From Nemertoderma westbladi (lineage: Eukaryota; Animalia; Xenacoelomorpha), in contig JAUCBJ010006217.1 in the NCBI GenBank assembly GCA_032718475.1, positions 1-40,807 on the forward strand: DNA of 40,807 nucleotides. Reading direction: 5' to 3'. This document shows, one piece after another, positions 5,430 through 40,807 of this stretch; positions within the stretch are counted from its first letter, which is position 1; each line of letters starts with the position of its first letter. The notes under the pieces are model-generated. The model saw nothing but the letters and a program-made list of their open reading frames with translations. It did not search any database and was not told the DNA's origin. The translations under genes were made by a program, and so were the position numbers.

Positions 5430-5691
5430 ATTTTTGTGATTGATGACATTGACAGGATAATTAGCCCATGGCCTTTAAATATAAGAAAACTAAATCAAAA
5501 TAACTTTGTTTCATTGAGGCACCGTTTTTGATTTGTAAAAGGTACCAGTACTATGTTAATGTATGTACACTTAACATCACTTTGCTTTCAAACTGTGTAT
5601 AGCCTATATAGTTGCATTATTGGTACCGGTAATTGATAAATGTTTCAATTGGATTAGATCTCTGTTTGTTATATGATATAATAAGATACAT

Positions 5692-7254: not shown

Positions 7255-8713
7255 ACAATATATGGTATCTGAATGTTCCACGTTTTAGTTTTCGCTATTT
7301 TAGTTTCCACGTATAACCACTTTTATATATCACTTTTGCTTCCACAATTTCTCATGCTGTGATTTATCATGGCGCATTTTCTGCACCACAATTTTTTTAA
7401 ATTAAATTTAATTGCGCATTAATTATTTTTATCAATAGTTCACAATAATATCAATATTCTAGAACATCGAATTATGGTACATTGAAGTTAATGAAGTATC
7501 GTTTTACAAAAACTGTGGTACCGGTACAGAAAACATGACACAATTTATCATGGCACTAAATCACGCCATGAGAAATCACGCTCACCGGAAATTGTGGCAG
7601 CAATGTGGTCTATATATTTCATTGAATACTGAAATGGTTGTTACGCATAGTTAACTCAAATATATACTTCCACTGTGCTACATTAAAATTAAATTGTAAA
7701 ATGTGTATCATATTTGAATATGAAAATGTGTAAATTGAAATCTGTATATAAAATGTGCTATTATAACATAATACCGAAAATATTATCAATAATTATAGTA
7801 AATGTTTTTTTATGTTTTTCAAATATAATCTACCCTAGTTTTATATACATTTTTTATTGGGTATTATTACAATATTGGCAAATTACGTAGACATCTAGGT
7901 AGTTTGACTACACAGATTATTATGCAGATTAATAAGTCAGCTGGTGAGGTTACCTAAATAATTTTGCATAATAACTCGATAATCTAGGTATTTTACCAAG
8001 ATTACCTAGTTAGTTCAAATGACAAGATAATCTAGTCAATCTGCCATGGTATCTTTCAGCACAATATTGGATGGATTATCGTGTCAGTCTCTTAATTTTT
8101 TTTGGCAGTTTGCAAAGATAGTTTTTTGAGTGTGCTGCATTTTTAAATTTTGGATGAAAATTACAAGTGTTGCCATAACTCGAGAACGAAACTACTCAAA
8201 TCAAAAACTAATTTCAGATCCGGAATTACCATAAAATTTAACAACGGAATACTCTTTAAAAAAAATAAAAAAAGATTGGGCGTAACCCGAGTAGCTAAAT
8301 GAGTACGGTACTGGAGTTTCCTCTGGGGAGTATATATAGTTCTGTGGGGACCGCACGGGAAATAAGTCGTCAGACTATCGCGTAATCCCTGGCGTAGCGG
8401 CCGAAGAAAACTTTACTTTTATTTAAGAATACAAGTGATACAACTCAAGCACTGAGCTCGACCTCGTGCGCTACTAAGTAAGGTTAACAAAACACTACCG
8501 ATACTAAAAAAAACACTACTGGTACTTCTCTTTAAACTACACTATTTAGTCATACCAACGCCGTCCAGGAGTGATTCAATTAATACCGTTGAACATGATA
8601 GAACATACGTACGAAGTCACCCAGCCATTTACGAAATCTCAGGTAGACATAGACCAGCCGCCCACATTCCGTACATTTCTATTTCCACTAAATAAAATAT
8701 AAAATAATCGTAC

Positions 8714-10432
8714 CTTTAGGGTCAGTGACGTCACGAAGTCTTATGTTATCCAGATCGTAGGGAGTGCGAGAAAGAGAGACCATCCAGGACTCTGGGGTCT
8801 CCAGTGTCATCGTCAACAACGACTTCTCTGGGAGGCCAACAAACCGAGCAGACGGACCAGCTGAGGCAGCACCGTCGTCACGGAAACGTAACTCTGACTC
8901 CAACACGTAGCGGTAGAAGGTCTTTAACGGAATCTCCGACCATTTCTCGGCGGGGTTGAGAACGAGAATGATGTCGATGTTAATCACGTCATGGAGAGCC
9001 TCGAGGATGGGAACAACCCTCTGGGCGTCCCGGGACAGCGGGTCCAATACCAGGACCACATCGTGAGCCGGAGATGCGGCATCGCGTCGGGGGATAGGGA
9101 TCGCGGCGGGGATCAACTCCCGGGGGAAGCGGACGGACTCCCGGAGGTCGGCGCGTTGGTGACGGGATAGCAACGCGCACGCCGCCATAACGGCGTCGCT
9201 GCGGGCGGCAGGGTCCGCTAACGAGGGTAGACCCGCGAGGGACTCAGACACCGCGCCGCCGCACGAACCCAGCGAGAGCTTCTCCAATAGCATAAAATCC
9301 TGAGTGAGGAATGGCCGCAACAGGGGACCCAACTTCCAACCGTTAACCACAACAGCCGACTCGCCTGGGTTCAACCTCATAACAGTGGAAGAAAAGTCCA
9401 TATGCAGCTGGAATGCAGCGGATAATTCCAAACTCGACAACATTTCGACAACAGAATCTTTACTTATTGCACTGGGTAGGATGTCAAACAGCTGTTTACT
9501 CTGTGAATGAATCTCCAGTAGATTATCTTCGTTCATAAGTTTCTGTATAGCGATTCTCGACGCGCTCTGTCCCGCAACTCCACCAGTTTTTACTCTCAGC
9601 AAACTCTCGCAGACGGCAGCTACACTGGTAATCCCCCGAGGGACCACACCAGCTCCGGGGTTGTGGATTACAGCAAGCCGCGCCATCCGCGACGACTTTA
9701 TATGGGCGAGCGCGGCGGCTAGCACAGCGCGGCCCTCCGCCGCGTCCAGGTCTGCGACCACCCACAAGGTGACGGGTCGCACTGCGTCCGCTCCCTTGGC
9801 GAGGTACCGCAGACTCGACCGCAGTGCGGCATGCTGCTGCCCCTCCCCCAGGTACTCCCGTGTCCCGCGCAGGATAACCTCGTTGAGTCGGGGCACCACA
9901 TTGTTCTGCTCCATCAGGTGATCCAACAGGTTGGTTGAGTCAGTGACGTCGCCAGCCACCACCCACTGCTGCCACGAGTTGGTAGAGGTAAACACACTGC
10001 CTACTATTGACTGTTCTAGAAGGTCAGAATTCCCCAATGTTTCTGGCTCCACTGGAACTCCATTGAATAGAACTTGAGGAGTGGATTCCAATCCCGAAGT
10101 AGCAATGAATTCCGCAGCTGACTCCAACTCGGGCCATTGTGAACCGTCTATGTCTCCAAGATCGTCGCTGTATTGAGTAGCAAACGTAGTTTCCAAAAAT
10201 GTAGCATCGGAGTGGACAGATTTAAGAATGCGATGAAGTTTATGTAAAGCTGGCAATCCGCCCTTTTCGCGATACTCTTTCATTACGATTCGGGGAATAC
10301 CGATAGATGGATCTAGGGTTGCTTGTACGCTAGCTCCGCTGTTACTGTCGCTTGTTGCTAGAACTATTCCTAATCGTATTGGAATGTTGTTGTTGGCTAA
10401 AGACATCATAAAGTCCACTAATTCGTAAGCCC
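8714..10432 (-). CDS. UGGT: UDP-glucose:glycoprotein glucosyltransferase, coding exon 3
   Basis: IPIRLG, PQVLFNG, VRPVTLWVVADLD, DPLSRDAQR, KTFYRYVLESEL, PESWMV..YDLDNI match UGGT. Acceptor AG at 10434-10433 and donor GT at 8713-8712 (both phase 1). Confidence 0.92.
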
Positions 10433-11189
10433 CTGAATAAAATTAGATTACGATTATTTTATGGCCATCAATTTTATTGTTAAAAGAAAGGAACACAAAA
10501 CAAAATAGAAATACAAAAAAATTATAAATTCATACAGACAAGGGGGGGGGGGGGGGGGGGGTTGTCGTTTCAGAACTCCGTAAACGTTGTAGCAAGTTTG
10601 TATGGATTAGTGTGTTCAAATGGATTACAATTGCAAATAATGGGATCCCGCAGAATAAAAACAACAAAGATGCATATCATAATTATTGTGTCGGAATCTC
10701 GCAGTTAGAATGGTGAACGGATATTGACAATGATTTCATCCTTAAATTGAAGCTAATTGAGTATCAGTTTCATCTCGGGGGAGGGGGATGGCAATAAGTC
10801 GTTATAATGTGCTTAATTTAATAACTGACATAACGGCCCAAGAAAACTCACTGTTTTGGCTTTTACTTAACAATTTATATCCATGTAAAGGATCCAATAA
10901 TTCACTATCAATTGACCTCATTATCATTTCGTTCACATATTGTATGATTATATTCACATCACACCAATATTTCTGTGAAATAAAGTGACATGAAGTCGAA
11001 CTAAAACAGCTACAACTGTAGGCTGTTTATGGCGGCCGTTTAATCGAGTTTAAATAAAGTTCTTGAATCTTGAAAAAAAATAACATCCAACTCTTGAATT
11101 ATTGTAACAATGATGAACCTATTACTTAGGAAAATGAACGGAGGGGCAAGCCCCTTGAAATGCATTGGTTATAGGTTCAGCCCCACCCG

Positions 11190-11250
11190 GCTCCATTCAG
11201 CCTTTCATCCCATGGGGTGGACAAATTGAGGACCAGTTTAATTACTGGGT
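11190..11250 (+). mobile_element. Deu/Nin-domain SINE fragment in UGGT intron 2
   Basis: TCAGCCTTTCATCCCATGGGGTGGACAAATTGAGGACCAG resembles the conserved DeuSINE/Nin central motif (from memory: TCAGCCTTTCATCC..GGGGTCGATAAAATGAGTACC). Confidence 0.55.
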
Positions 11251-11419
11251 GCAAAACAAGGGATAGGGGTAATGCGAATCGGGTAGGAACCTACAACCTA
11301 CCGAGAGAGGAGCCTTCGGGTAGCCTCCGGTTTCGGCCGATTGTTTGCTTGGACAATGTTATAAAATAAAATTAAAAAATTAAGGCAAATTGAAAATACT
11401 AAACTAAGCGATAGAATAC

Positions 11420-11999
11420 CTTTATCGTTAGTCGGGTTAACAAGTAGAACGAGGTGGTGGAGATTCTTGCGAATGTGTCGTAGCACTCCGGGGAAGGTTG
11501 GTCGCAGGAGATCCCGCACCGAGGAAGGCCAATCCCGGTACAGGCGATCCGTCTCGAGATCATTGATCCACAGGATCCCCGGGTGTCGGATATCCAGTGC
11601 GTATTCGAATCCCTGCGAGACCACCGGGACCCGTAGCAGAGTCTGCAGCAATGCTGACTGGTCTACCGTGAGTCCCAGCAGGTTGGTTAGTCCGTGGATT
11701 AATTTAGTCTCGTCGTTGAGTAGAGACAACAATACGAACGGATCCAGTGTGTCTATGTTAATGGCCAACCCGTTAATGAACAGAGCCGAGGATGAGTGAG
11801 GTTGGAGAAGGTTCTCGTAACTTTTAAACGTCGTTTTTATCTTTTCGACGAAGGAGTTTTCAAGGCGAATATCAGCTAGAGAGTGAGAGAGGCGGGGGAA
11901 GTTGCCGCTGATGTTTTTGAGTGTGGCCAAGGCTATGGAGGCATCAACGCCAACTACAAACTGAGAAGCTTGATAGCTCAGACTCTGTATTTGCCACAC
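11420..11999 (-). CDS. UGGT: UGGT coding exon 2
   Basis: VWQIQSLSYQASQ, LFING, WINDLETDRLYRDWPSSVRDLLRPTFPGVLRHIRKNL. Acceptor at 12001-12000 (phase 0) and donor GTATTC at 11419 (phase 1). Joins in frame to both neighbours. Confidence 0.92.
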
Positions 12000-13181
12000 C
12001 TAGTGTTAAATATATAAGAAGAAATACAATGATTATATTTGTTTACCCAAACTACTAGTAGTACAAGTCAAGGACACAACACACATAGTTCAAACAGTAG
12101 AATTAATATAAATAGTAGAAATTCGCGAAATGCAAAAGTTAATAGGGCAATCTTTGAATCTCAGAGCCATTGTATATTTTGGGTATATTTGTTTATTATT
12201 TTGGTTAGGATTAGTTGGTCAAGCCTTAACCGTAATTAAAACTGTCATATAACCCTAACCCTAAGTCATAATCTAAGAAATTTAGTGGAATTTATTGCCA
12301 TAAGGCCGTTAGCCAATGAGGAGAGCTTATTAAAGGAACAGCCAATTAGAAGCCCAGAAATACTCCCATAGGCACCCCAATTGGAAATATGCGCACTGGT
12401 TTCAGTTTCATTTCTACGCCTAAGTCATTGATTGATGACGTTTATTTATTGATTAAATTACTTTTGATTAAACTCCAGAATTGTAATACTGTACTGTAAT
12501 TACAATTACTTGTAGGCCTACTGAAATAAAGCAACAAGTTCCTTTTAAAGTAATTTCATCTCAAGGAGGTCTGGCCTACTCTGCTACCCGTTTCATAAAT
12601 TTCTGTTTCAGATCGTAAGGTTTTTTTCCAATTTGTAAATATTTTTAACTTGATAAATTTTTAAGACAAATTACAAATATAGGCCTATTAACTATTAAGT
12701 AATGTATTACACCACGTCAACATATCAGCGCTCAGTGATTTATATTCATCACGTTGCGAAATACCGCAATATCCATGTAACTGGACTATTTACGCATAGG
12801 CGGATATTCTTAGATTTGCCATTGGCTATCATTGCCAGTACAATTGGATTGGCGTATTAAACTAAACTAGGCCTAAAGAAATATCTTACCGGTATCTTAT
12901 CTTATCTTAATAAATATCTTATTCTATTAACATCCATAGATTGTATAAATTATTTATCCTGCTTAAATTACTTAATAATAAATCAATATATATTTAATAC
13001 TACTTTAACTATAATTACGCGTTCTGCCCATAGTAGTTTTATTTGTAAATTTACTTTGAATGCGCAATGCGCATACGGACATAAACTCTTTTTATTAATA
13101 TACGTGGCAAGACCCTCTTCCCAGCTGTTCCCTCCAGCCCCCTGGAGGCTCAGCATGAAATATCTTATGATATATATTTAC

Positions 13182-14105
13182 CTTTAGGGGTTTCATTTCA
13201 TCCGAAGTATCTTTGAGATGCTGTCGGAAAGTTGTTAACTCCACTTTCAATTTGGGGTGCAGATCTGTTAGCTTTCCGAATAGGAAGCCCTGGATATCAG
13301 CCACATTATCGACATCATCTCCGTTATCACTACCGGCTGTTTCATCTATCACTTTATATTCCGTTGATTTTAGAGCCAATTCTACGCCGAAACCACTCAA
13401 CCTTACGGGAACCGCACGCACATCGAGATCACTCACGTAATGACGCACCAGGTAAACTATTCGGCCTTCTTCAGCCAAATTAATTAAATACGTGTAAAGT
13501 TGGTTGAAAGCTTTGGTCGCCAATTCGCCATAGTGTATGACCAGAGGTAAAGAATTGCGTGAAAAGTTATTATTAATCGGATAAGTATGATCAAAAGAAA
13601 ACACCGTGGATTTAAGTTGAGTAAAGGTTGACTTAGAAGGTTCTTTTAATTTCCGCAGTTCTAATTCGACTTCGTTCACAGAACACAGAGTTTCATTATT
13701 TATAATAACGAAGGAATTGCACGGGGGAATAGTGGGAATATTCTCGACCAACTGGTAATGAAGTTGAACAGCAGGAGAATAAGCCCTTAACGATAAGGCG
13801 AATCGGAGTAAAGGTATTTGCAAGTCTTTGAGGGCCCCAGATATTAATGATAATTCAAGTACTTTGTTATAATAATCTAGGTCGGTATAGTCCGCATCAA
13901 ACTCAAAAGAAGAAACGCTCCGCAAAAAACGCCAAAAGCCACTTTCGTCATTTACTCTGGCAATAAACTCGCTGGTTTCAAGAAGTAATGGAGTATTACC
14001 CCAGTTGGATTCGAGAATTGTATTTACAGGTTTCGCTTGAGAACCGTAAACATGTTCTTGTGACACTATAGACATAAGGATGAAACTCCGCAAAAATAAG
14101 TACAT
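13182..14105 (-). CDS. UGGT: UGGT coding exon 1 (signal peptide and N-terminal domain)
   Basis: Hydrophobic N-terminus MYLFLRSFILMSIVS, then W..TPLLLETSEF, LSLRAYSPAVQ, VRLSGFGVELALKSTEYK, IQGFLFGKL. Donor GTAAAT at 13181. An alternative ATG lies at 14150. Confidence 0.9.
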
Positions 14106-16043
14106 TGCTCGAGATGTTGAGGTGCTGAAGGTGAACGGCGATAATGCCATGATGAACCAAACCAACAACTGAAGAAACCCTAATCTTCAGTTGATAAACC
14201 GGCCACTCTTCCCGTACCGCCGTACGACCAGCCTTATACTGTTATATCGGTAGACGGTAGCAGAGAGGCCGAGCCGAGGCCTATCTCTGTATCTAGAACA
14301 GTAATAGCAGAATAGAAATTAATAGGCCTAATACTGTAATAGATCACCACCACCACCACCAGGTGTAGGCCTAAATAGGCCTACACTACAGAAATATTTT
14401 TATAACTATTTACATAGGCCTAGGGTACTTGTGTGTAAAGTAGCACTTTACATGGTGATGATCAGATCTGAGTGATTTGTTACACGAACGAACGTTAGTG
14501 AGTGAGTGAGTGAAAATAAAGCCACGAGGATTAGAACACTATAAAGTACTTTGTAACAAGTATGTATGTAGTTTTATTCCAAAATTGTAACATTCTGACA
14601 TTACGAAATGATTGTATATATATTATAATACAGTAATAAGTGATAGAAACTGCACAAATTAAATTAGTTGCTGTGTAAATAAATGTAAAAATAACATAAA
14701 TGTAACGCTGTAAGCATATCTGGCTGTCAGGCAATTAATCATCAATGCCACCTATTGTTTACGTGGTAAGTGGTAACCAATGACGCCGTAACTTTACAGC
14801 TCGCCGTCATTCAGTCATTGGCAATTGGTTACCACACAGCCACATACTGACTGAGACTGACTGACATAACAGCATACTAACGGCTGAACGGCGTTGAGTA
14901 CAGGAGTACAGGAGTAGTTACAATTTTGGAATAATAATTATTTCGGTATTTATTGACAAAATGACCAAAAAAACAAAATAACTGCTGACAAAATGACCAA
15001 AAAAACAAAATAACTGCTGAACTGTAAAATAACACCATAGATCTCAATTGTCCAACAACACTCAGTCAGACACGATATCGAAAGCATGTAACTGTGTAAC
15101 ATAGGCATAAATTAATTAATTACCGGACCGGGGAATATCAAACACAAACAACAATAACCTACAGGTTGGCAGTTGGGCGTGGGCGCGGCAGTTAGACTCA
15201 TCTGCTAATGGCTGAATCTGTGAATGGCAAATGGAAAGAAGACAATTGAGATAGTATTCTGTGATCTGTATCGTATGCCATGCACTGATGCAGTATAAAC
15301 GTAAATTGCACTTTATTGCTTGTTTTGTTCAGTTGTTAGGCCTCCGTACCGTACAGCCGTACTGTAGTACTGCTGGTTCTTTTTCAGATGTGCAATTGTG
15401 CAACAGTATTACTGCTGTACTGTAATACCAGACCAGTCAGCCAATTCTCTTACAGTCTGGCAGTACAGCAGACCTGCAGTATAAAGGTATAAAGCAATAT
15501 GAAGTGAAATAAGTAGGCCTAATACAATCTGACAATAGGTACTGCATACTGCCGTACTGGGAGACTATTATTGCGAGCGAAGAAGGTGTCTCCTTGAAAT
15601 ACACCACCCAACCGCACAACCGCTCAATAACAAATCAATGGGAAGCATCAGCACTGCGACGTTACGACTTGTGATTGGTTGAGTAATTTGTACTGTATTG
15701 TACTACCACTCTCCATAACATATATAATTAAATTGTATATTGATACTTGATAGACACTTAAATGTAAATAAACAGTAAAAGTAGCAGATATTAGTTGTGT
15801 TTGTGTATAGGAGGGAAAAGACCGCCAATGACATGCAGAAGCAATTAGACCTACTAATGTTGGTCCCAAAGTGAAAAATATTATAAAATATTATCATATT
15901 TAAAATAATTTCCAAAAATAAAAATGGCGGAAAGCACTGTTTTTAAAACAATAGAAAGTTTGACTTTTCTATAGGTAGTGTGTATTTGGCAAGACATAAT
16001 TAATAATATTTATATTATAAAATGACTAAAATCAACACTCTTA

Positions 16044-18297
16044 TAGATTTATTTATACATTATGTAAAAACAATAACAAATACACCAAACAATGTACCGG
16101 TATAAAGGTATTGTCCAACATAACATATAGGATTACCCCTAAAGCTTTGCAGCTTATTTCCAAGGGGGTCCTTTATGTTACTTGGTTACAAATACAATAT
16201 TACACTACGCTAACCTAAAACCAATATAAAACGTAATTACACTATGTACATGTACAACTTTACCGAGAGCGTGACAATGCCCGACTCAACGATAAAGATG
16301 TACAGTAATGTACAGAACAATTTATTATAAAACGTAATTACAGTATAAATAGTAAATAATTAATAAACTAATAACTTACTGTAGGACTATTGTACCTATT
16401 TTTACATTGCACACGGAGGTGAGATTTAACTGCAGATTTAAAAGAATGTTGATTATTTATGTTTTTAATTTCATTAGGCAGAGCGTTCCAATTTTTTATG
16501 CCGTTAAAAAAGAAAGTATCAGATTCAAAGGATTTACAATTCGGGAGGTAGAAGTTTGAAGCACTAGCTCTGGTACTGTAAGAGTGTGTATCGCGTACTC
16601 TGTTGAATTTTTGTTTTAGGTAATTGGGACATTTACCATTATACACTTTATGCACATGGTTAAGGCGTAGCTGCTTAACTCTACTATCTAAGTTAAGTAG
16701 TCCAGATTCAGAAAAGTCATCTGGAGTTAGGTGGTGCCTAGGTTTGTAGTCTTTAATAAATCGTACTACTTTATTCTGAGCTACTTGTAATTTACATTTA
16801 AGCTGTTTGGTTAAGCCTTCATACCAAGAAGAGCATGCATAGTCCATGTGACACTGTATTAAAGAAGAGCAAAGTAACTTGCGGGAGTCGGTGTTCAAAC
16901 TATTTTTATTTCTGTATAGAAACCTAAGCCTACTGTTAACTTTCGAGAAAATATTTTTCACTGTACTTTCTCCTGATAAGCAGTTATCCAATGTGGCGCC
17001 TAAATATTTAACTTCCTTTTTATTTTCAATCTTATGTCCATTACTAGTGACTTCAAACTTAGTTACCTTCTTTAACTTTCTTTTGGAACCAAACAAAATA
17101 CTTTCAGTTTTACCGTAGTGAATGGATAGCTTATTATCAACCAACCACTCATTACAGGATTCTAGAACTGCACTTAACTTTTGGGAAATATGGATAGGAT
17201 CTTTATGAGAGAAAATAAGAGCACTGTCGTCGGCATAAAAAATGAGTTTAAAATCGGGATCTATACTACTTATCATATCATTTACATAGCATACAAAAAG
17301 CAGAGAACCTAATATACTACCTTGCGGTACCCCACAGGTAATCTCTTGTACAGTAGACTGCGATTTGCTAATGACTACAGTTTGACCTCTGTCTGACAGG
17401 TAGGACTTGAACCAGTCTATAGAACCTACACCCATCAGGCCTAACTTACCAAGCAGAATTTCGTGATCTACAGTATCGAAAGCCTTTTGTAGGTCCAACA
17501 TTACCATACCAGTATATAAACCCTTTGCGTTATTACATCTAATTGTATCAGTTAAGTTAATAAGGCAGGTGTCTGTAGAATATGATTTACGAAAACCGGA
17601 CTGAAGTTCATAGATCAGATTTAGCCTACTAAGATGTGCCTCCAGCTGTAGAAAAACAGAACGTTCTAGAATTTTAGATACAATACTTAAGATACTAACA
17701 GGTCTGTAATTACAGGGTTCTACTTTACTATTCTTTTTATACAGAGGAACAACCTTAGCTAATTTCAGTTCGTCTGGTACTACATTATCTACGATAGAGT
17801 AATTAATAATAAAAGTAATAGGCACTTTAAGTACTTGAGCACCATCCTTAAGAAAACGGGCAGGTATTAGATCTAGACCGGTACTTTTTGAGGCTGATAG
17901 GCTAAGTAGATTTTTAAAAACGAAATCCTCAGAAACGGGTTTTAAAAATAACTTTTCTGAATTTTGTAACTTTTCTAAATAAAAATTATTTAGAGTTTCG
18001 GACCCTATACTATATTTATTACTTGATAACGGTAACTTCTTAACTAAATTAGAGGCAACATTAGTAAAATAATTATTAAATAAATTACTAACTAGAGTAT
18101 GATCATGAATCAGCTCACCGTTATCTTGCAGAACAATATTCGATTTAGATTTAAGGTTTTTATAACCTAAAGATTTTAGGGTAGACCATAGACTTTTTGG
18201 ATTATCTTTATTCTCACTTATTTTGTTGTACAAATATTCAGATTTAGCTTTTTTTATTTCCCGTTGGACAAGGTTTCTACAATGCGTAAATGCTTCT
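16044..18297 (-). mobile_element. 5'-truncated CR1/L2-group (Crack/Daphne-like) LINE; RT ORF at 16368-18233
   Basis: [43 protein letters not shown]. Hairpin in the 3' UTR and an AATAAAT-type tail near 16045. No endonuclease domain. Confidence 0.9.
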
Positions 18298-20020
18298 TAA
18301 ATGCGTAAATTGATAGGCCTACTGTAGTTCGCTTGGCCTGCCTGCCTGCAGTGGTCGTGTGGGTGTATGAAAAGAAAGTCACCTTTTAAATAAACTAAAG
18401 TAAAGCTGCGCCCGACATGGACGACTTTGAACGAAAGACTTTTCAAAGTCAAAGTACTGTAAAATCACATCGAAATCTTTACGTCTATACGAAATCTTAA
18501 ACCATTCATTTGTGAACTCAAGTTATTGTGAGTTGAGGTTGATGTGTGTTTTAGAAATAACAGGATTAGCGATTAGCATTTTAGGCGTACTTTGTAGATC
18601 AGTTTATTGTTTAATTTTTGAAAATACAAGGTTGTTTCTAGGCCAGAATTTCATGGCGAATTTTTTTTAAACAAATCATCCTTATATCCATTCGACCCCA
18701 TGAGAAGGGTGCTATGCAATTTAAGATTCATGTAATATTGTTGGACATACCACACCAACCAGGGATGGCATGGCCACCCCACTGTAAAAGCTTTTGCGGA
18801 CATACAAATCATTTTTACGCAATGCGCTGAATACTCTAAAATAGCCCTAAATTTATCCAACTACGCGACGGGAAGGAATTAGAACCAAGATGACGACATC
18901 TGTCAGCTGATTCTTTGTGGACGTGGAGGTTCTTTGTTCTGTCTTGTTCAGCCAATCAGAGCAATTTTCACTTTATGTCTAACAGAAACCTATGGAAACT
19001 CGCGCAATGCATTACGGTCTTTGTTTACTATTTTCTGAGCATCAGAACCAACTCAGAATTTTCTGTGCTTCTGTGCGGAAGTTTCAGACTTTGGCCTAGG
19101 AACATCAGATGGCCTTGATTATAAGAACGTAAATCTATTAACTCTATTTACTATTAAACACCATTGAACATTTACTTTACTATTTTCTGATAACACATAC
19201 TGACTGCTCACCGCATTATTTTACTTCTGTTTATAGTATTAATTGTTGTTATATTAATGGATACTGATGTTATATTTGGAGAATACCGATAAATAATCAT
19301 AAACCCCCCAATCTTATTGATTACTGAGGTAAGAGGAATAGAGTTTACCGGTAGCAACTGCGACTTAAATTATAGTGGTTTTGTGTGAATTAAATGCTAT
19401 TTCATAATCCCTACGTGTGTCAGTTGCGATCCTCCTTATATATGATCAAATTCAGTGACGGTCGGCAGATTAGTGCGAACTAGTGTGAAGTAGTGTGAAG
19501 TCGTGTGAAGTAGTGTGAAGGTTAATAAAGCATCTCCTAAAGAATGCGCTATTTACGAAACTCTGTGGCCATCTAGTTGTGATTAGTATAAGTCATAACT
19601 CTGTTTTTATACTTAAAGCGCCACGTCCTAAAGGAACTGTGAATATTTCCCCGAAAGTAAATATATTTGTCAGAGATTATATAGTAGCGATCAATCGAAT
19701 AATACAGTAGGTCTACACTGCAATAACTCTCAAGGAATCCGAATCCAGTCTCCCACACCGTGGGTCATACGCCGCGCACGGACTGGCTTCGGCTGATGTA
19801 ACTTCAGTACACTAGGTAATTGGTAAAGGCTAAAGTCGATTTATAAACAAGAGGACAACTAAAATTGGCAGGTTAAACTGCTAAAGGTCTAAAAGCGCGA
19901 ACACCCACCTTCATTATAAAACAAACGCGAAATCGAGCAAAGGTCCGGGTCTTCTAACGTATGAATTGTCTCCTTTAATGGCTCACTAGGGGGTACCAAT
20001 TTTACTATCCAAAAAATTCA

Positions 20021-20085
20021 CCGGGAAGAGGGATTGAACTCGGTACCTAGCGATTCCAAATCCCGTGCTCTACCAACTTCGTCAT
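20021..20085 (-). mobile_element. tRNA-derived SINE head or tRNA pseudogene
   Basis: Minus strand reads TGACGAAGTTGGTAGAGC (A-box-like) ... GAGTTCAATCC (B-box-like) at tRNA spacing. No clean cloverleaf. Confidence 0.5.
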
Positions 20086-20579
20086 TGCGCCGTATAAAGC
20101 CTTATAAAACCAAAACCCAACTGGAAATTAACAACACCACCAACAAAAATAACAACAACAACAACGGAGTGTATATGGTCTCGCTGCAAAGCAATATAAA
20201 AATAAAAGAGCATTGAATACCCATAATAATAAATACCATTCAGGTAATGTAAAGGACAAGGTGCATATACCCATACGTCTAATGGAGGAGAAAATGTAGA
20301 GATCAACTTAAATAATATGACAGAGTTTGAAAATTGGAAACAGACGTTTGAAATTAACACAAAGTCGTAGCAATAAATATTAGTTTAATCGGTTATATAT
20401 AATATTCTTAATTCAAAACTTAAATACTAGCGGTGAATGTGTTAACGCCATCTAGCGGCCGATGCTGATGTTTTGGGTTTCTGACCTTACCTAATAATTA
20501 ATTGAACAGGTTATTCAAAACCAATGAAGTGTTTCAAAAGTTATTAAGCCTAGACTAAGTGATATTTAGCCTCCTAGAT

Positions 20580-20822
20580 GCGGACCCTTTAAATGGACGA
20601 CGCCAAAATTCTGAAAACTTTCTAAACTTTGATATACTTACTACTTGTGTACCACGTTTGGTTTTAATTTCATCCCAAAGATTCGCTGAATTACTGTATT
20701 AGCATTCAAAGATTAGACGGACCGACTGACCAACCGCCTGGCAGACCGACAGATAGACGCGACGCGAAGTGGAGTTTGGTACCCGTATTTTAAGCTCGCT
20801 CATTTTCGTGGCGCGCCCCACA
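20580..20822 (+). mobile_element. 3' portion of a Helentron-like (HINE) element
   Basis: GAC-rich microsatellite-like tract at ~20716-20765, then TTCGTGGCGCGCCCCACA, matching the ends at 24735 and 25655. Confidence 0.55.
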
Positions 20823-21204
20823 GTTTTAGTAAATGTTGCCGGGTAGTGCCTCTGGTTGTTTTAAGGGCTTCCGAAATAGTGACTCTAGTATTTTCAAGGC
20901 CCTTAAAAATAGTCCTTAAAATTACTAGAATCACTATTTCATGTCGCCATATCAGCAATATGGCCTTTTGAAATCAGCTGATGGCGTTGCTAGGTACCCA
21001 GTTTAAAACCAATCAGGAAATAGTGATTCTAGTAATTTTAACGGTTCAGTCCGGGACCTGACAATACGGGGAGACCAAGATACGACGTTACTAAGTCTCA
21101 ACTTGAATACCTCAAAGAGGCGGGATTTAACTGGACTCAGATTGCTGCGATATTTGGAGTGAGTCGATCAACTATTATGGATTATGTGATTATGAGTATT
21201 ATGT

Positions 21205-22723
21205 GTTCCCCCTGAGGTCTTTAAAATACCTGAGTGTTTAAAGCTCATCTATCCCATCATAGTAGACATGTACCGAACAACAGGAGTCCCACAAGAAATG
21301 AAAACAAATAAGTTGGTGCCAGTTCCCAAGAAGGGCAACCTAACACTCTATGGTTCTTTTCGGGGAATCTCATTGATCTCGATTGCTGCAAAGCTATACA
21401 ATAGGATTCTATTAAATCGCATCAGGGATCCCATTGAGAGACTGCTCCGTGGAAATCAGAATGGGTTCCGTAAAGGTCGTGGGACCATGGAGCCCATTTT
21501 GGCACTTAGAAGGATAATTGAAGAGTTATCAAAAAAGAAAGACAGGCATCTGGCTGTTATCTTTGTTGACTTCTTCAAGGCCTTTGATTCAGTCTCTCGC
21601 TCACGTATGTTCAGCATACTTTCATTATATGGGATTCCTGATGAAATTATTGCAGCAATCAGATCAGTATACGATGGTTCGACAACATTTGTGTCTACTG
21701 TTGAAGGTGACACAGAACCATTTGAAGTGTTATGGGGCGTCCTCCAAGGAGACACACTTGCACCATTCTTGTTCATTATTTTGGTTGACTATGTTCTACG
21801 CATGTCCTTAGATCATTATAATGATGATGGGGTGATGATAACTCCACCTACTGGCTCCAGAAGTCGAGGAAATCCTGCCAAGTACCTAACTGATCTAGAC
21901 TTTGCTGCTGACTTAGGAGTACTCTCAGAATCATTAGAGGGAGCCCAACGGCTCCTCAGCTCATTAGAACATGCTGCTTCTAGTGTTGGTCTTTTTATTA
22001 GCTCCAGAAAGACCAAAATTCTGACAGTTAACTTTGAAAGTCCTCAGCAAGTCTCTGATCGGATGAGCATAAGCTCAAAGGATGGTATGCTTGATCATGT
22101 GGACGACTTCTGTTACCTGGGATCATGGATCCGGAAGTCAGGTGAGGTCCTTCGAATACGTAAGGGAAAGGCATGGGCAGCCTTGAATAGGCTTTCCAGG
22201 ATTTGGAAGTCACCGAGAATTAATCGGAAACTTAAGGTCCGATTATTTAGAGCAGCAGTAGTTCCAGTACTCCTCTACGGGAGTCCATGCTGGGCTCTAA
22301 CTGCTGAGGACACCAAATCTCTGGATGGCACATTCACAAGAATGCTACGCCGGGTACATTGTGTCAAGTACAATGCACACATCTCCAACCAGACACTATA
22401 TAACATTGGAGGTGTCTCATTGGTTCCCCCAAGCTTGACACTAGAACAAAATCGCCTCCGCTTTGCAGGACATTGCTTTCGCCGTGAGGACCAGCCAGTG
22501 CATAATCTTGTACTTTGGCAGCCTCATGGAGTGAATAAGCATGGTGGACAGCCCATGACTTTCTTGAGACGCATCTTAAAGGACACTGGCCTTAAAGATG
22601 CGGATGATCTAGCAAATGTCATGGGTGATAGGGAGTTGTGGCGGTGCAATTTTGTTGACAAGCCGGCACAGCATTCTTAAAAATGCAGCTGCAATGCAGC
22701 ATGCCGATCCTAGTAGTAGTAGT
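21205..22723 (+). mobile_element. 5'-truncated RTE-clade LINE; RT ORF at 21268-22680
   Basis: FRGISLIS, QNGFRKGR, FVDFFKAFDSV, GVLQGDTLAPFLF, FCYLGS, RLRFAGHC. (TAG)n tail at 22711-22723. The catalytic FADD reads FAAD. Confidence 0.9.
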
Positions 22724-23348
22724 CTTCAATTAGGTTTGGGAGTTCGAAACGGTTTGGGAATTCGAGTTTGGGAGTTTTTCATTGTGAAATAACTAAAACT
22801 GAAGTGAAATAGCAAAATAGGTAATATAGGTATTATATATGATATTATGTTATGTGTTATGATATTATATATTTTCTAGAATATTAAATGTTGATGGAAT
22901 TTTAAAATTTCAATGTTGATGGAAACCGAAAGTTCATGATTGTTTACAATTGAATTTTTTCGCTAATTCGACTGTACTCGACTGTACGGTGGGATTGATG
23001 GATTTTCCTGTCTGATTACATACCTTTATCCATCGGGTAACAACTGTGCTGCAACTGTTTTGCCATTATTGGAGGAAGATGTTAGGAAATACGGCCTCCC
23101 TTCAAGGGTGAGAGGAGATAAGGGAGGGGAAAATAGACTGGTCGCCGAATATATGATAAGTCATCGAGGCACAAAACGAGGAAGCTTTATTGCAGGTAAA
23201 AGTACTCACAATCAAAGGATAGAACGCTTATGGAGAGATGTATTCCGTACTGTTGTTATTGTTTATTATGAGCTGTTTTTTTGGCTAGAAGACAACTCCC
23301 ATTTAGAAACCCCCTCTGTCGATGATATATATTGTTTGTATATTACTT

Positions 23349-24735
<1,387 letters not shown>

Positions 24736-30538: not shown

Positions 30539-31419
30539 AACGAATTATGATAAGCTCTAAGCTACACAAAATGTTATGTATAGTCTACACTGTGCAGTAT
30601 ATCAGTACCAGATTACATGGCCTAATGTCAGGAATTCCCGTATTTAGTTCCAAAATAGGATAACAAATTTGTTTCTATTATAACTAAGTTCGCTTCTGAA
30701 AATGTGCGAATGCAACTAAGTTCGTGTAACAACTGGTTAGTAATATTACCGGTTTACTGTTTTGCTTCTTAGATACAACTTAATTGTATTAACATTGTAT
30801 TTAATAATGTTTTGTACATTACACTTAACTAAACTCTACTTTCCTGTATCTTGACTCCGCTATCTCTGTACTTATCTTTATTGATAAAGTATGATAGTAA
30901 TAATAATACAATATGAGTAATGTATTTTTCTCAATTAAAATTTTGGAAACTTAGAAACACTAACTACATTAAGTAAATAATAGTGACTAAGATACTAATG
31001 ACGTCAATACAACTTAGGCCTAGTAATCATTTATGGATTTATGTTATGCCCACTTTTACAGACCCAATCACCCACATCCACTAGTAAATCTTAAACTCTC
31101 GATAGTGCAGCAACTTTATGTACCGTCGTTATCATATGCTATTACAGAAACCATATGATTTCAACAGTAGTCCGATTCACGCTTTATACTTCTTTACAAT
31201 AGTGGAGAAAGGCCTTATCAATGATTGGCTAAAAGATGGGTGGCAATTATTCGAAGATGAGGCACAAATTCTTGATTGGTTAAAAGATGGGTGACAATTA
31301 TTAAAATTCTTAATCTTAATTAGTCTTATTAATTCTTAATTATTTTATTTAAATTATATTTAATTTAAATATTAATTCTTAGTCTTAATTTAGTGGTGCA
31401 GTTTTGTTAGGGTAGGGGT

Positions 31420-31491
31420 GGGGTTCGTGGCACACTGCTGATGAGGAGAACCACGAATCCCAGGGTTCAGTGTTTAAATCTCCGAAACCCT
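31420..31491 (+). ncRNA. Hammerhead ribozyme, non-circularly permuted topology (copy 1)
   Basis: ACACTG-CTGATGA-GGAGA ... AGGGT-T-CAGTGT ... TCTCC-GAAA-CCCT gives stem I ACACTG/CAGTGT, stem II GGAGA/TCTCC and stem III AGGGT/ACCCT. Predicted cut after GUU at 31467. Confidence 0.75.
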
Positions 31492-32092
31492 TTTATTTTT
31501 ATAAAATTTATTACTTAGACTTACATTTTCGGCGGACAAAATGTCCTATATTTTTCGTAATTTATGGGATAGCCTATTTCGTGCAATACTTACCGGAACC
31601 TGTAGTTACTGTATGGTTGGGTGTAACTTTTCTTGTGGTAGTTGGGTTGGGTTATGTAGCACTAAAATCGATTTGGTATTTTGTTTTTTGATGGGCATTA
31701 GTGCCTGAGTACTAACAGTGGCCCAAGTGGCCCTAAATGCTAGGTAGTATCTGAGGGAATAAGACCCCATGTGTCCTATTTTATTGTTTTCATATTAATA
31801 TCACAATCCCTCTAAAGTCGCGGTTGTCTAACATCATATAATTATATATTTACAGGGGCATTTTCTGACATCTGCGCAATTTTGTTAAAAAATCTGATAA
31901 TTTATCTGTACATACCGGTAGGTGCTAATTGGGGTTGGTTGCATTCAGTGGGGAATCATGTTTATGCATTTGGGGCTGATGGTAACATACATTGGGGGTG
32001 GGTGGTTTCAACTCTGTTCGGTGGTACGGTAGGATTTCTAATTTATTGGTCATTGTCTTAATTTAGTGGTGCAGTTTTGTTAGGGTAGAGGT

Positions 32093-32164
32093 GGGGTTCG
32101 TGGCACACTGCTGATGAGGAGAACCACGAATCCCAGGGTTCAGTGTTTAAATCTCCGAAACCCT
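32093..32164 (+). ncRNA. Hammerhead ribozyme, non-circularly permuted topology (copy 2)
   Basis: Identical to copy 1 over all 72 nt. Predicted cut after 32140. Confidence 0.75.
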
Positions 32165-32559
32165 TTTATTTTTATAAAATTTATTACTTAGACTTACCTT
32201 TTTCGGAGGACAAAATGTCCTATATCTGTATATTTTTCGTAATTTATGGGATAGCCTATTTCGTGCAATACTTACCGGAACCTGTAGTTACTGTATGGTT
32301 TGGTGTAATTTTTCTTGTGGTAGTTGGGTTGGGTTATGTAGCACTAAAATCGATTTGGTATTTTGTTTTTTTGATGGGCCTTAGTGCCTGAGTACTAACA
32401 GAACAGTGACCCAAGTGGCCCTAAATGCTAGGTAGTATCTGAGGGAATAAGACCCCATGCTGCCATGTCCTATTTTATTGTTTTCATATTAATATCACAA
32501 TCCCTCTAAAGTCGTGGTTGTCTATCATCATATAATCTATTAGCTCTCAACCTAAGATA

Positions 32560-32965
32560 AATTGCTATCCTGCTGAGTGCTCCTACCACCTTGTGGAAGC
32601 CGCCTTTGCGCTCTTGCCACTACGACAAACAATAGTATGCCTATTCATTGGCTTGCCCTAAGACCAATCTGCCAATCTGTACTTGCTTGTCGTCATAAAG
32701 TCTGTATAACGGGTGCTCCACTGGTTATTAGTTTTTTGGTTATTGGTTGATTAGTTTACTGGTTATCTCCATACCATGCTGCCAGGTTACGTAACAGCCT
32801 ATCTTTCCTCCTTGTTTGGCAGATTAGTTTAGACACCCATATGATGAGTATATTTGATTGGTTGTGGGAAATCTGTTGGCTGTCGCTACTGTAATGTTTT
32901 GTGTGGCAGATCTGATCTGTAATCTCCTGCCTGCCCCTCTTAGTCTTCAGCTCTTTCCAGTACAA
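32560..32965 (-). mobile_element. Possible highly degraded RTE-like LINE 3' remnant
   Basis: Weak motif echoes across frames on the minus strand (ELKTKRGR, YGC, RLADW..PMNR..STRW). Confidence 0.25.
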
Positions 32966-36827: not shown

Positions 36828-37019
36828 TGAATTGAATGTTTCGAAGAAACAGACTTCCTCCCAAATGAAAGCCCAAATGGCAGCGCGATTCGGTTTGCCG
36901 TTACCTAACATGATTGACCCAACACGCCCTCGCAGGAGCAGTCATGTTACTCCATTGTCTCCCACTGAGGCCGTTTGCGCAGAATGCGCAACCACGATAG
37001 CATCCAGTCACTGTGCTCG
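36828..37019 (+). CDS. TRIM/RBCC protein exon 2 (start of B-box 1)
   Basis: Acceptor TTTTATCAG at 36827, in frame with exon 1. Encodes CAECATTIASSHCA. Donor CG|GTAAGT. Confidence 0.85.
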
Positions 37020-37902
37020 GTAAGTAATACACAACCACGATAGCAGCATCCAGTCACTGTGCTCGGTAAGTAATACACAACCACCATAGCAGCATCCAGT
37101 CACTGTGCTCGGTAAGTAATACACAACCACGATAGCATCCAGTCACTGTGCTCGGTAAGTAATACACAACCACCATAGCAGCATCCAGTCACTGTGCTCG
37201 GTAAGTAATACACAACCACGATTGCAGCATCCAGTCACTGTGCTCGGTAAGTAATACACAACCACGATTGCAGCATCCAGTCACTGTGCTCGGTAAGTAA
37301 TACACAACCACGATAGCATCCAGTCACTGTGCTCGGTAAGTAATACACAACCACCATAGCAGCATCCAGTCACTGTGCTCGGTAAGTAATACACTACACA
37401 ACCACGATAGCAGCATCCAGTCACTGTGCTCGGTAAGTAATACACAACCACCATAGCAGCATCCAGTCACTGTGCTCGGTAAGTAATACACAACCACCAT
37501 AGCATCCAGTCACTGTGCTCGGTAAGTAATACACAACCACCATAGCAGCATCCAGTCACTGTGCTCGGTAAGTAATACACAACCACGATAGCAGCATCCA
37601 GTCACTGTGCTCGGTAAGTAATACACAACCACGATAGCATCCAGTCACTGTGCTCGGTAAGTAATACACAACCACCATAGCAGCATCCAGTCACTGTGCT
37701 CGGTAAGTAATACACAACCACCATAGCATCCAGTCACTGTGCTCGGTAAGTAATACACAACCACGATTGCAGCATCCAGTCACTGTGCTCGGTAAGTAAT
37801 ACACAACCACGATAGCAGCATCCAGTCACTGTGCTCGGTAAGTAATACACAACCACGATAGCATCCAGTCACTATGCTCGGTAAGTAATTCACAACCACG
37901 AT
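36989..37902 (+). repeat. 43/46-bp minisatellite, 20 copies, spanning an exon/intron junction
   Basis: Unit CAACCACGAT(AGC)AGCATCCAGTCACTGTGCTCGGTAAGTAATACA. 20 GTAAGT counted from 37020 to 37881. Confidence 0.97.
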
Positions 37903-37932
37903 TAATCATTTTGTTCCGATATTATATTTCAG

Positions 37933-38167
37933 GTGCAACGTGAACTACTGTGGACTGTGTTTCGAGAACATTCACAAAGGGTCGAGGATCCTGCGTCAGC
38001 ACCAAGCTACAGCCTTGTTTGAACATTCGAGTATCCGCCGCCATGTCTGTGAGACCCACACTGATCGCGAGCCTGAGCTTTACTGCACCCCATGTCAAAA
38101 GGCTGTTTGTTCATTCTGCTTACCTGATATACACAAGGGGCATGAAGTTGTCACATTAGAAGCCAAG
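37933..38167 (+). CDS. TRIM/RBCC protein exon 3 (B-box 1 end and B-box 2)
   Basis: Acceptor TATTTCAG at 37932. Encodes RCNVNYCGLCFENIH..RQH and CETH..LYCTPCQKAVCSFC..HKGH. Donor AAG|GTTAGT. Confidence 0.88.
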
Positions 38168-38932
38168 GTTAGTTAATTTTTAAATCCTGACAATCTGTCC
38201 TGCAACGAACCTGCTACCTTTACCTTTAACAATATGTCATGACATTCCATACCATCATATTATTTTGCAACAGCTGGGCTCTATGGCAACGGTATGACGT
38301 CATTACATCACTTCTGGAAAGTCGATACCCCGGAACCCCTCACCCAATTTTTTTTACAAATCGTAGTGTGATTCATGGAATTTGAAACAGCTGGTTAGAC
38401 TTCTGTTGGTTTTTATGTCAGCTTAGAGAGTTGACAGTTGAGTGTACATCAGATAAACTAATATCTGCGAATGAGTAACTCAACAATATTTATCTGTTGC
38501 TTTTGGTATCGGTACCTAAGTAATACCGTAACGCCTAGCCCCATTGCCATTATGTATGGTTCCAATTTATGGGGTGATACGTATTTCATTTAGCCCATGG
38601 ATTCCACCACTCCTTCCCGGGTAGTCTACTTCGGCCTTAAACGACAGTGAATTCAATTTAATTTTTTCCAAAAGTTTTCCATTTATAGGTCCTTACCTAA
38701 AAACCGTCCGGGTTTCGCGTCATTGGGTACTTTGGTGCAATATCATGGTGTTATTAATGGAAATGAGTATGTTACAGTGACATGTTATTCGAACCAAAAC
38801 AATAAGACGAGAGTCAATATTACATGTTACAGTTTAATTTTTGCTGAGAATAGATTTAGATTTATGGTAAGAAATAGGTTTGTTGGAAATATAAATAAAA
38901 CTACTGTATTATGCAGCACCAAACGCTAACGA

Positions 38933-39060
38933 TCCAGGGTAATGGTCCAGGGTAATGGTACAGGGTAATGGTCCAGGGTAATGGTCCAGGGTAATGGTCC
39001 AGGGTAATGGTACAGGGTAATGGTCCAGGGTAATGGCCCAGGGTATTGGTCCAGGGTAAT
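38933..39060 (+). repeat. 13-bp minisatellite (TCCAGGGTAATGG), ~10 copies
   Basis: Seen directly, in TRIM intron 3. Confidence 0.95.
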
Positions 39061-39125
39061 CCAATTTAGAACTGGAGTCGATATTATTATAGATATTTTC
39101 TACCATTATGATGTTCTATTTATAG

Positions 39126-39302: not shown

Positions 39303-39504
39303 GTAAGCAGTATAGTTACTTGATATATTATAGTGAGTTGATGAATGGTCAAGTTGTCATTATATTCTACATAGCCGCCATCATTTTTTTTATTTTAAAC
39401 CAATTATATTTTGTTAACTGAATATTATGTCGAACAAGGTATTAGATTAATATAATAAGGAATGCTCCAATTACAAATACAGTCCTACCAGATTATCCTT
39501 TGTT

Positions 39505-39990
39505 CCTTTTTTTTCTTTTTTTTAGAACATTTCCTTTTTTTCCTTTTTTTTAGAACATTTCCTTTTTTTCCTTTTTTTTTAGAACATTTCCTTTTTTTCC
39601 TTTTTTTTTTAGAACATTTCCTTTTTTTCCTTTTTTTTAGAACATTTCCTTTTTTTCCTTTTTTTTCTCTTTTTTTTAGAACATTTCCTTTTTTTCTTTT
39701 TTTTTAGAACATTTCCTTTTTTTCCTTTTTTTGAGAACATTTCCTTTTTTTCCTTTTTTTTAGAACATTTCCTTTTTTTCATTTTTTTGAGAACATTTCC
39801 TTTTTTTCTTTTTTTTTAGAACATTTCCTTTTTTTCTTTTTTTTTTAGAACATTTCCTTTTTTTCCTTTTTTATTAGATCATTTCCTTTTTTTCTTTTTT
39901 TTTAGAATGTTTCCTTTTTCCTTTTTTTTTAGATCATTTCCTTTTTTTCTTTTTTTTTAGAATGTTTCCTTTTTCCTTTTTTTTTTGGCC
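39505..39990 (+). repeat. ~28-29-bp pyrimidine-rich minisatellite, ~16 copies
   Basis: Unit TTTTTTTTAGAACATTTCCTTTTTTTCC. Confidence 0.95.
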
Positions 39991-40807
39991 ATTTTCACAC
40001 CTTTTATTCCTTTTTTTAGTTCAGAAAATAGCCTGCTGTAAGTGTAACATGTTCTATTCTGTACAAGGCAGCGGGGAGACAGCTGGACAGGTCTTGTAGT
40101 CTAATCAATTACTGGTACTGTACCACTGTCTGACTGTACTGTAGTTCCATATATGACGATTTCAGACTAAACTAACTATATACTATCAGATCAGTTGTAG
40201 TAGTCCTTGGTACTAAACTAATATAACAATGTACCGGTACCGGTACCTTTACCATTATCATACTACCATAGTCATAAATATTCAATTAATTGGCAAAAGT
40301 TCGTGTTTTTTTAAATCACATTGTCCCACTTTAGCCCAGGGGGGTAAAGTGAGTCATATTGTGTAAAATGGGACTGTTGACACTGGGATTTAGGTTATAA
40401 GTTGAGTTGAGTATGAAAAACGACAAATTAAACCAAACAATGAGTATATATGAATGTTTGGCTAGAGTTCAGTACCGGTATAGCACTACATTTTTAAAAC
40501 ATATATCATTGTTACTATGGCAACGTTGAAGAGTTATAGAACAATGTAAAAGTCTAGAACAATACATACATAATTTATTGTTAACATGAAATTTTTTTCT
40601 ATTGAGGCTGTGGCGATTCTATATATTATACACCATGACCCGTAATATAGTGTCATTTTCTGATGACAGGGACCCCCCCCCCCCCCCCCCAGATTTTTCT
40701 ACAAATCTTTATCATATTGTTTGAAATTTGAAACACAACTAGTTCCACTCATCGTGGTTGTTACCATGAAGCCGGAATTTTCGATTTCGCCTTTAAATTT
40801 TTTTTAT

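What the first reader, a model, noticed from the sequence alone, without database searches (positions are those of the whole stretch)
31382..32536. Retrozyme-like unit: two ribozymes 673 nt apart in direct repeats
Seen: the hammerhead occurs twice, identical, inside ~460-480 bp direct repeats that differ by substitutions and indels elsewhere. There is no credible ORF. Established: retrozymes and Penelope-like pseudo-LTRs carry hammerheads in direct or tandem repeats and release monomer RNAs that can circularise. Inference: cuts at 31467 and 32140 would release a 673-nt non-coding monomer, a possible non-autonomous circular-RNA retroelement using a permuted hammerhead. The tandem layout also allows inter-copy folding, where one copy's core cleaves the other's substrate strand in canonical order.
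Basis: partly seen in the sequence, partly recalled or inferred. Interest (0 to 1): 0.8.

Follow-up and report, generated by a model that had tools for sequence, protein, structure and literature searches.

The report
Knotted CSG hammerhead in animal retrozyme
A non-coding repeat in this animal genome carries, twice, every part of a hammerhead RNA (predicted to cut itself) wired in a knotted order so far published only from two soil-DNA sequences, and the same wiring can be read at the tail of published Naiad jumping genes that were said to lack one, so the repeat is likely a stripped-down parasite of such elements.

Summary
Observation confirmed: 461/482-nt direct repeats (93.8% identical), each with an identical hammerhead core 673 nt apart, and no credible ORF. 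The strand order is C-S-G: the type-CSG non-circular permutation of Eckert et al. 2023, known from two unique soil-metagenome sequences. Stem lengths (6/5/5 bp), the 5-nt linker and the I-II helix match those, with different stem letters. Chance controls: 0 of 200 shuffles and 0 of 135 core-motif matches elsewhere reach these helices. Sequencing contigs show a high-depth family with inverted junctions, so this is no one-off duplication. Read by eye in the Craig et al. 2021 supplement, 7 of 7 nematode Naiad 3' ends that I saw carry the same CSG fold. Best reading: a retrozyme-like, non-autonomous derivative of a Penelope-like (probably Naiad) element. CSG is the only one of the six block orders in which all three core helices hold both cut ends together, which predicts self-ligation. 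Not shown: cleavage, transcription, a circle, or the autonomous partner. The monomer folds no better than shuffles, and inter-copy folding is not needed.

The parts
31382..31842 (+). Repeat copy 1 (5'-truncated partial unit, pseudo-LTR-like)
   Evidence: summed contig depth rises from under 900 to 5,600-47,800 (X1) past about 31400
31843..32054 (+). Internal segment, present once in the locus but multi-copy in the family; in run X4 its 5' part is about 7-fold shallower than the ribozyme-bearing part
   Evidence: X4 depth 53 at 31871-31937 versus unitig depth 367 at 32056-32365
32055..32540 (+). Repeat copy 2; 3' end of the element, where depth falls to single-copy level
   Evidence: (X1 depth 29,029 at 32474-32540, 17.9 at 32541-32607; a 206-nt contig bridges the junction)
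31420..31491 (+). Type-CSG hammerhead 1. I-II helix 31420-30/31451-61 (11 bp); stem I 31432-37/31468-73; core CUGAUGA 31438-44; stem II 31445-49/31479-83; stem III 31462-66/31487-91; 5-nt linker 31474-78; GAAA 31484-87
31467..31468 (+). Predicted cleavage site 1 (after U17 of a GUU triplet)
   Evidence: structural analogy; not tested
32093..32164 (+). Type-CSG hammerhead 2, identical to 1 (offset 673)
32140..32141 (+). Predicted cleavage site 2
   Evidence: structural analogy; not tested
31468..32140 (+). Predicted 673-nt monomer RNA, 39% G+C, non-coding, not more self-paired than shuffles
31300..31381 (.). A+T-rich low-complexity stretch at the 5' junction (target site or junction filler; not resolved)

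Best explanation
This is a 1.7-unit partial-tandem copy of a non-coding repeat, likely present in hundreds of copies, whose unit carries a type-CSG hammerhead predicted to cut itself, and which is likely spread in trans by a Penelope-like (probably Naiad-type) reverse transcriptase. Shown: the anatomy, the four helices, the high-depth family with inverted junctions. Inferred: read-through transcription of tandem units; each ribozyme folds locally as a double pseudoknot and cuts after U17, releasing a 673-nt monomer; because stems I, II and III all bridge the two cut ends in the CSG order, the ends would re-dock and be joined (by the ribozyme or by an RtcB-type ligase) into a circle; a PLE enzyme then copies the circle, or an uncut multimer, for more than one round at an A+T-rich nick, leaving partial tandems and inverted copies. 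My odds by step: real CSG fold 0.9; cleaves in vitro 0.8; PLE-mobilised 0.7; Naiad clade specifically 0.5; circle in vivo 0.45.
For: Block order, core nucleotides and all four helices. Same stem I (6 bp), stem II (5 bp), stem III (5 bp) and 5-nt UUAAW linker as CSG-1/2, with different stem letters (compared by eye); both CSG-1 and CSG-2 cleave in vitro. Background: 0 of 135 core-motif matches in 134 viral and metagenome loci exceed a summed 8 pairs, against 16 here. Family: element bins at 5,600-47,800 (X1) and 1,000-26,700 (X3), against contigs of depth 16-24 on the unique right flank; seen in 3 studies, 2 if the best holder is left out as the possible source. 10 of 14 listed joints are opposite-strand joints inside the element at depth 6-32; 9 are distinct and 3 occur in both X1 and X3. 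This fits the partial-tandem and inverted 5'-truncated copies described for PLEs. Both repeats share the minority letter at 32306/31624 (X3: 4,410 of 4,429 depth have the other letter), pointing to one template. 7 of 7 nematode Naiad consensus 3' ends seen carry CSG with four pairing helices, one of them with U17 like this one (by eye). CSG alone has three bridging helices.
Against: No cleavage, transcript or circle was observed. No Naiad or other PLE ORF is linked: 53 of 63 frames of 45 aa or more in 28.5-36.5 kb were scanned, 0 RT or GIY-YIG hits; the window's two RT ORFs look LINE-type (recalled motifs). Sequence homology to a Naiad pseudo-LTR was not tested. The monomer folds no better than shuffles (z=+1.17; 19 of 20 shuffles as good), unlike described retrozyme circles. 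No target-site duplication of 9 nt or more and no shared 30-40-nt tail were found. No covariation within this family is available; ribozyme identity between copies has P=0.09. U17 is not the C17 of CSG-1/2 (GUU is recalled as slower than GUC). A G-rich tract just upstream can pair with the stem II and III 3' strands in nested folds. In the one PLE tested in vitro, cleavage was not needed and uncut RNA was the main template (PMC11167929). The non-nematode Naiad ends I saw show another order (S-G-C), and the host does not look like a nematode.
Confidence: 0.6

Rival explanations
1. An internally deleted relic of an autonomous PLE (pseudo-LTR, short remnant, pseudo-LTR), copied from uncut multimeric transcripts; the CSG ribozyme is inherited cargo and no circular RNA is involved.
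For: In X4 the 5' internal part is about 7-fold shallower than the ribozyme part, contigs join at 31991 from other sequence, and a 1,210-nt unitig of depth 463 shares only 31654-31772. The insertion spans both cut sites. The monomer is not self-paired. Uncut RNA is the main template for PAc in vitro.
Against: In X1 and X3 the internal part is itself deep (12,000-22,500 and 6,200-11,100), so the short unit has multiplied as such. No ORF remnant is detectable.
Confidence: 0.25
2. A SINE-like or retrozyme-like unit mobilised by a non-PLE retrotransposon (for example a restriction-like-endonuclease LINE) that also carries a permuted hammerhead.
For: Inverted junctions also arise by twin priming in LINEs (recalled). 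Unchecked notes of this scan report permuted hammerheads in Hero-like elements. The window holds LINE-type RTs.
Against: Partial tandem layout and no poly(A) or simple-repeat 3' tail. The CSG order is seen in Naiads.
Confidence: 0.1
3. The active form is a canonical-order ribozyme assembled from two copies, or the motif is an inactive satellite feature.
For: Some animal hammerheads act as dimers. The nested minimum-energy fold keeps only the I-II helix and stem III.
Against: All four helices are perfect within 72 nt; CSG-1/2 cleave as single units; each Naiad consensus shows one copy at its 3' end. Nested folding cannot represent the pseudoknots, so the absence of stems I and II there says nothing.
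Confidence: 0.05

Closest known systems
Type-CSG hammerhead ribozymes CSG-1/CSG-2 (Eckert et al. 2023, PMC10085705; seen: abstract, parts 3-5 of 8, Discussion part 1 of 2, passages, supplement passages with the CSG alignment)
   Same: [quoted passage not shown]
   Different: All stem letters differ; longer I-II helix (11 bp against 8); U17 instead of C17. Here it sits in a multi-copy repeat of an animal genome; the published pair came only from soil metagenome DNA with no known host.
Naiad Penelope-like elements (Craig et al. 2021, PMC8557442; seen: passages, supplement parts 1, 13, 14, 15 of 59 and motif searches)
   Same: Partial tandem layout and inverted copies. The paper flags 8 'half cores' with 35-50 nt spacing (39 nt here). 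By eye, Naiad_Ppac, Parc, 1/2/3_Nbra, Hcon and Hpol end in a complete CSG hammerhead (stem I 5-6, II 4-5, III 6-12, I-II helix 9-18 bp).
   Different: No ORF and a 0.7-kb unit instead of 3.4-4.4 kb; no tail or (TA)n target shown; homology untested. Coral and acanthocephalan Naiad ends seen use S-G-C order.
Metazoan non-LTR retrozymes (Cervera and de la Pena 2020, PMC7229834, parts 2-3 of 6 and passages; Li, Clavereau and Pollet 2026, 10.64898/2026.07.22.740005, parts 1-2 of 5 and passages, supplements not seen)
   Same: Non-coding tandem units with one hammerhead each, G+C under 50%, no primer-binding site or polypurine tract, many copies, proposed PLE dependence.
   Different: Ribozyme is type CSG, not type I; unit 673-694 nt (above 150-450, within the 51-972 range of Li et al.); monomer not highly self-paired; RNA not shown.
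Plant LTR retrozymes (as described)
   Same: Two hammerheads in direct repeats around an internal segment, with a monomer of similar size.
   Different: Those have type III ribozymes, primer-binding site, polypurine tract and 4-bp target duplications; none is seen here.

Membership tests
Type-CSG hammerhead | Block order C, then S, then G | tested here: met
Type-CSG hammerhead | Core CUGAnGA, GAAA, A15.1-U16.1, H17 | tested here: met
   H17 is U
Type-CSG hammerhead | Stems I, II, III | tested here: met
   6/5/5 Watson-Crick pairs; background
Type-CSG hammerhead | [quoted passage not shown] | tested here: met
   11 bp, pairing probability 0.99-1.0
Type-CSG hammerhead | Covariation | tested here: inconclusive
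   Different letters with kept pairing against CSG-1/2 and 7 Naiads, by eye only; no alignment statistic; no within-family variants seen in the rows shown (40 of 72)
Type-CSG hammerhead | Self-cleavage at the predicted site | not testable with these tools
   needs an in vitro assay
Canonical type I/II/III hammerhead | Circularly permuted order (CGS, GSC, SCG) | tested here: not met
   Rfam 0 matches
Metazoan non-LTR retrozyme | Tandem units, each with a hammerhead | tested here: met
   1.7 units, 2 ribozymes
Metazoan non-LTR retrozyme | Type I hammerhead | tested here: not met
   type CSG; hence 'works like', filed as a variant and not a member
Metazoan non-LTR retrozyme | Non-coding, G+C under 50%, no PBS or PPT | tested here: met
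   PBS/PPT and TG..CA ends checked by reading
Metazoan non-LTR retrozyme | Many genomic copies | tested here: met
   depth and inverted junctions; depth is not a copy count
Metazoan non-LTR retrozyme | Highly self-paired monomer | tested here: not met
   z=+1.1 circular (30 shuffles), +1.17 linear (20 shuffles)
Metazoan non-LTR retrozyme | Expressed as linear and circular RNA | not testable with these tools
   no raw RNA reads available
Metazoan non-LTR retrozyme | Long target-site duplication, when present | tested here: inconclusive
   best flank match 8 nt, far from the ends
Naiad PLE (autonomous) | ORF with N-terminal GIY-YIG and RT | tested here: not met
Naiad PLE (autonomous) | Partial tandem (pseudo-LTR) and inverted truncated copies | tested here: met
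Naiad PLE (autonomous) | 30-40 bp tail; microsatellite target bias | tested here: inconclusive
   depth is single-copy just after 32540; A+T-rich stretch at the 5' side
Naiad PLE (autonomous) | Homology of the unit to a Naiad pseudo-LTR | not testable with these tools
   no genome held for this window; no eukaryote repeat library
Plant LTR retrozyme | Type III hammerhead, PBS, PPT, 4-bp TSD | tested here: not met

The most novel reading that the evidence does not exclude
Type CSG is a resident ribozyme of Naiad retrotransposons and their non-coding parasites, the published soil CSGs come from soil-animal Naiads, and the knotted order is kept because all three core helices clamp the cut ends, making a self-ligating hammerhead that turns tandem transcripts into circular RNA without a protein ligase.
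Probability: 0.25. Interest if true: 0.85.

Novelty: new variant of a known kind. Interest (0 to 1): 0.68.

Why it matters
Eckert et al. called the evidence for biological relevance of type CSG weaker, having two similar sequences and no host. An animal repeat family plus seven published Naiad ends would give it hosts, a context and many changed-but-paired helices. It would also answer why Naiads seemed to lack hammerheads, and show that retrozyme surveys built on type I descriptors miss a class of elements. The topology gives a sharp test: type I retrozyme monomers self-ligate only 1-3% and need RtcB, whereas a CSG monomer is predicted to re-dock its ends through 16 base pairs. I found no paper placing type CSG in animals or retroelements (searches; open-access library only). 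Unchecked notes of this scan already report other permuted orders in Naiads, so the general link is not new within the scan.

Tried and rejected
No whole genome is held, so there is no direct copy count or partner search. Exact ribozyme pattern in metagenome contigs: 0 matches. No RNA holder listed. One run guessed to be RNA, of another organism label, has a 219-nt contig over 31830-32033 at depth 2.2; not counted as expression. A closer look at ribozyme variants and element ends among copies, and at two other organisms, could not be obtained, so these stay open. Host lineage unresolved: the UGGT piece is 36-40% identical to mollusc and vertebrate proteins, and none of the 120 listed hits (of 514) is named as a nematode. 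LTR-retrozyme reading rejected (no TG..CA, PBS or PPT). No tRNA genes. Clustering of inversion ends at 31772-31780 (4 of 18 ends) is not significant (P=0.055). A short resemblance between the internal segment and nematode Naiad 5' UTRs was seen by eye and dropped as post hoc. A possible kink-turn at 31688-31710 was dropped because the central pair varies between copies. A paper search on GUU cleavage rates gave 1 off-topic listing. Sequence and place look-ups in earlier findings were blank.

Full report
Observation. The region holds two direct repeats, 31382-31842 and 32055-32536, 93.8% identical with 9 substitutions and 5 indels, around a 212-nt internal segment. A 108-nt run covering the ribozyme is identical in both. 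There is no credible ORF: the longest Met-started frame in the circularised unit is 55 aa, and 0 of 8 element frames hit Pfam. Rfam finds nothing in the window at gathering thresholds, because the motif is not in a canonical order.

The ribozyme. Each copy reads: I-II helix 5' strand, stem I 5' strand, CUGAUGA, stem II 5' strand, I-II helix 3' strand, stem III 5' strand, U17, stem I 3' strand, a 5-nt linker, stem II 3' strand, GAAA, stem III 3' strand. Stems I, II and III have 6, 5 and 5 Watson-Crick pairs, and the I-II helix has 11. This is the C-S-G order of Eckert et al. 2023 (PMC10085705), a double pseudoknot. They found two unique, similar sequences, only in soil metagenome DNA; both cleaved (0.004 and 0.026 per min), and the authors called the evidence for biological relevance weaker than for SGC. 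Their alignment has the same three stem lengths and a UUAAW linker, with different stem letters. Chance is excluded two ways: 0 of 200 shuffles of the window give 6/5/5 in any order, and among 135 matches of the bare core pattern in 134 viral and metagenome loci the best summed pairing is 8 against 16 here. Differences that could matter: U17 rather than C17, and an upstream G-rich tract that competes for the 3' strands in nested folds. Nested folding cannot score the pseudoknot itself.

The element is a family. No genome is held, so I used contigs of public runs. Four DNA runs of one organism label from 3 studies hold the stretch; three of them plus one other run were laid. Summed depth over the element is 5,600-47,800 in X1 and 1,000-26,700 in X3, against contigs of 16-24 on the unique right flank; one X3 unitig has depth 4,354. 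That suggests hundreds of copies, though depth is not a count. 10 of 14 listed joints join opposite strands within the element at depth 6-32; they reduce to 9 distinct junctions, 3 of them seen in two studies. Both repeats share a minority letter at 32306/31624, which fits copying from one template. In X4 the 5' internal part is about 7-fold shallower than the ribozyme part and other sequences join at 31991, so sister families with other internal sequence exist. No target duplication of 9 nt or more was found. The host is an animal of unresolved lineage.

Link to Naiads. Craig et al. 2021 (PMC8557442) describe PLE insertions as partial tandems with inverted truncated copies, state that Naiads lack canonical hammerheads, and flag 8 half cores spaced 35-50 nt; the spacing here is 39 nt. 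In their consensus file I read by eye the 3' ends of 7 of the 8 nematode Naiads (Naiad_Asuum's end was not seen). All 7 (Ppac, Parc, 1/2/3_Nbra, Hcon, Hpol) carry a full CSG hammerhead: stem I 5-6 bp, stem II 4-5, stem III 6-12, I-II helix 9-18, linker 2-5 nt, C17 in six and U17 in Hpol. The two Pristionchus elements match this locus in 6/5 stems, a 5-nt linker and a C-A mismatch at the helix junction. Against a simple assignment: coral and acanthocephalan Naiad ends seen use the S-G-C order, I viewed only part of the 54 Naiad entries, I ran no alignment on these sequences, and no PLE ORF is linked here (53 of 63 nearby frames scanned).

Mechanism. Shown: anatomy, helices, high-depth family, inverted junctions. 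Inferred: tandem units are read through, each ribozyme cuts after U17, a 673-nt monomer is released and may close into a circle, and a PLE enzyme copies the circle or an uncut multimer for more than one round. A topological point follows from the block order alone: in five of the six orders one core helix links the cut products, while in CSG all three do. This predicts slow product release and favoured re-ligation, unlike type I retrozymes, which self-ligate 1-3% and need RtcB (PMC7229834). Against the circle: the monomer folds no better than shuffles, and for the PLE tested in vitro cleavage was dispensable and uncut RNA was the main template (PMC11167929).

Placement and novelty. The motif meets every sequence-level feature of type CSG; cleavage is untested. 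The element works like a non-LTR retrozyme but fails the type I criterion, so I file it as a new variant. Searches, and passages of PMC13725137, showed no paper placing CSG in animals or retroelements; the library is open-access only and bioRxiv supplements were not seen. Unchecked notes of this scan report other permuted orders in Naiad and Hero elements; none of those shown names a clean CSG in its own locus. Verdict: real, uncommon and testable; interest 0.68.

Noticed in passing
Craig et al. 2021 supplement File S5: Seven nematode Naiad consensus 3' ends carry complete type-CSG hammerheads that the paper did not recognise; three were flagged as half cores, one as core, three not flagged.
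   Followed up: partly
Craig et al. 2021 supplement File S5: Three Acropora Naiad ends and an entry near part 12 show the S-G-C order; the corals have a 5-nt UUAAW linker between stem I and stem II strands like the CSG here, with the other stem II strand apparently supplied from upstream.
   Followed up: no
window 31772-31780 / 32455-32466: Indel-rich spot among copies; 4 of 18 inversion-junction ends fall here (P=0.055), and a multi-copy form (depth 172 and 389) jumps from 31930 to 32463, skipping the ribozyme.
   Followed up: partly
window 31409-31418: G-rich tract upstream of the ribozyme can pair with the stem II and III 3' strands; the single change at 31416 makes this fold about 2 kcal/mol stronger in copy 1. 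Possible off-switch.
   Followed up: partly
window 8688-14186 (-): UGGT-type gene (Thioredoxin_12-15 domains) in three unusually long open frames (363, 233, 584 aa), only 36-40% identical to the best hits: an intron-poor, divergent animal gene.
   Followed up: partly
window 2973-7254 (+): Two long ORFs (818 and 525 aa) with no confident Pfam hit; they resemble a CACTA/EnSpm-type transposon by recall only.
   Followed up: no
window 16368-18296 (-), 21196-22680 (+), 22967-23395 (+): Two RVT_1 ORFs of LINE-like appearance and an rva_4 integrase-core fragment next to 315-nt tandem repeats (23622-24532).
   Followed up: no
window 31223-31306: A separate short multi-copy repeat (about 55-nt duplication, depth 640-850) just left of the element.
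   Followed up: no
window 36893-37998, 38901-39082, 39445-40048: Minisatellite arrays with periods 43-46, 13 and 28 nt.
   Followed up: no
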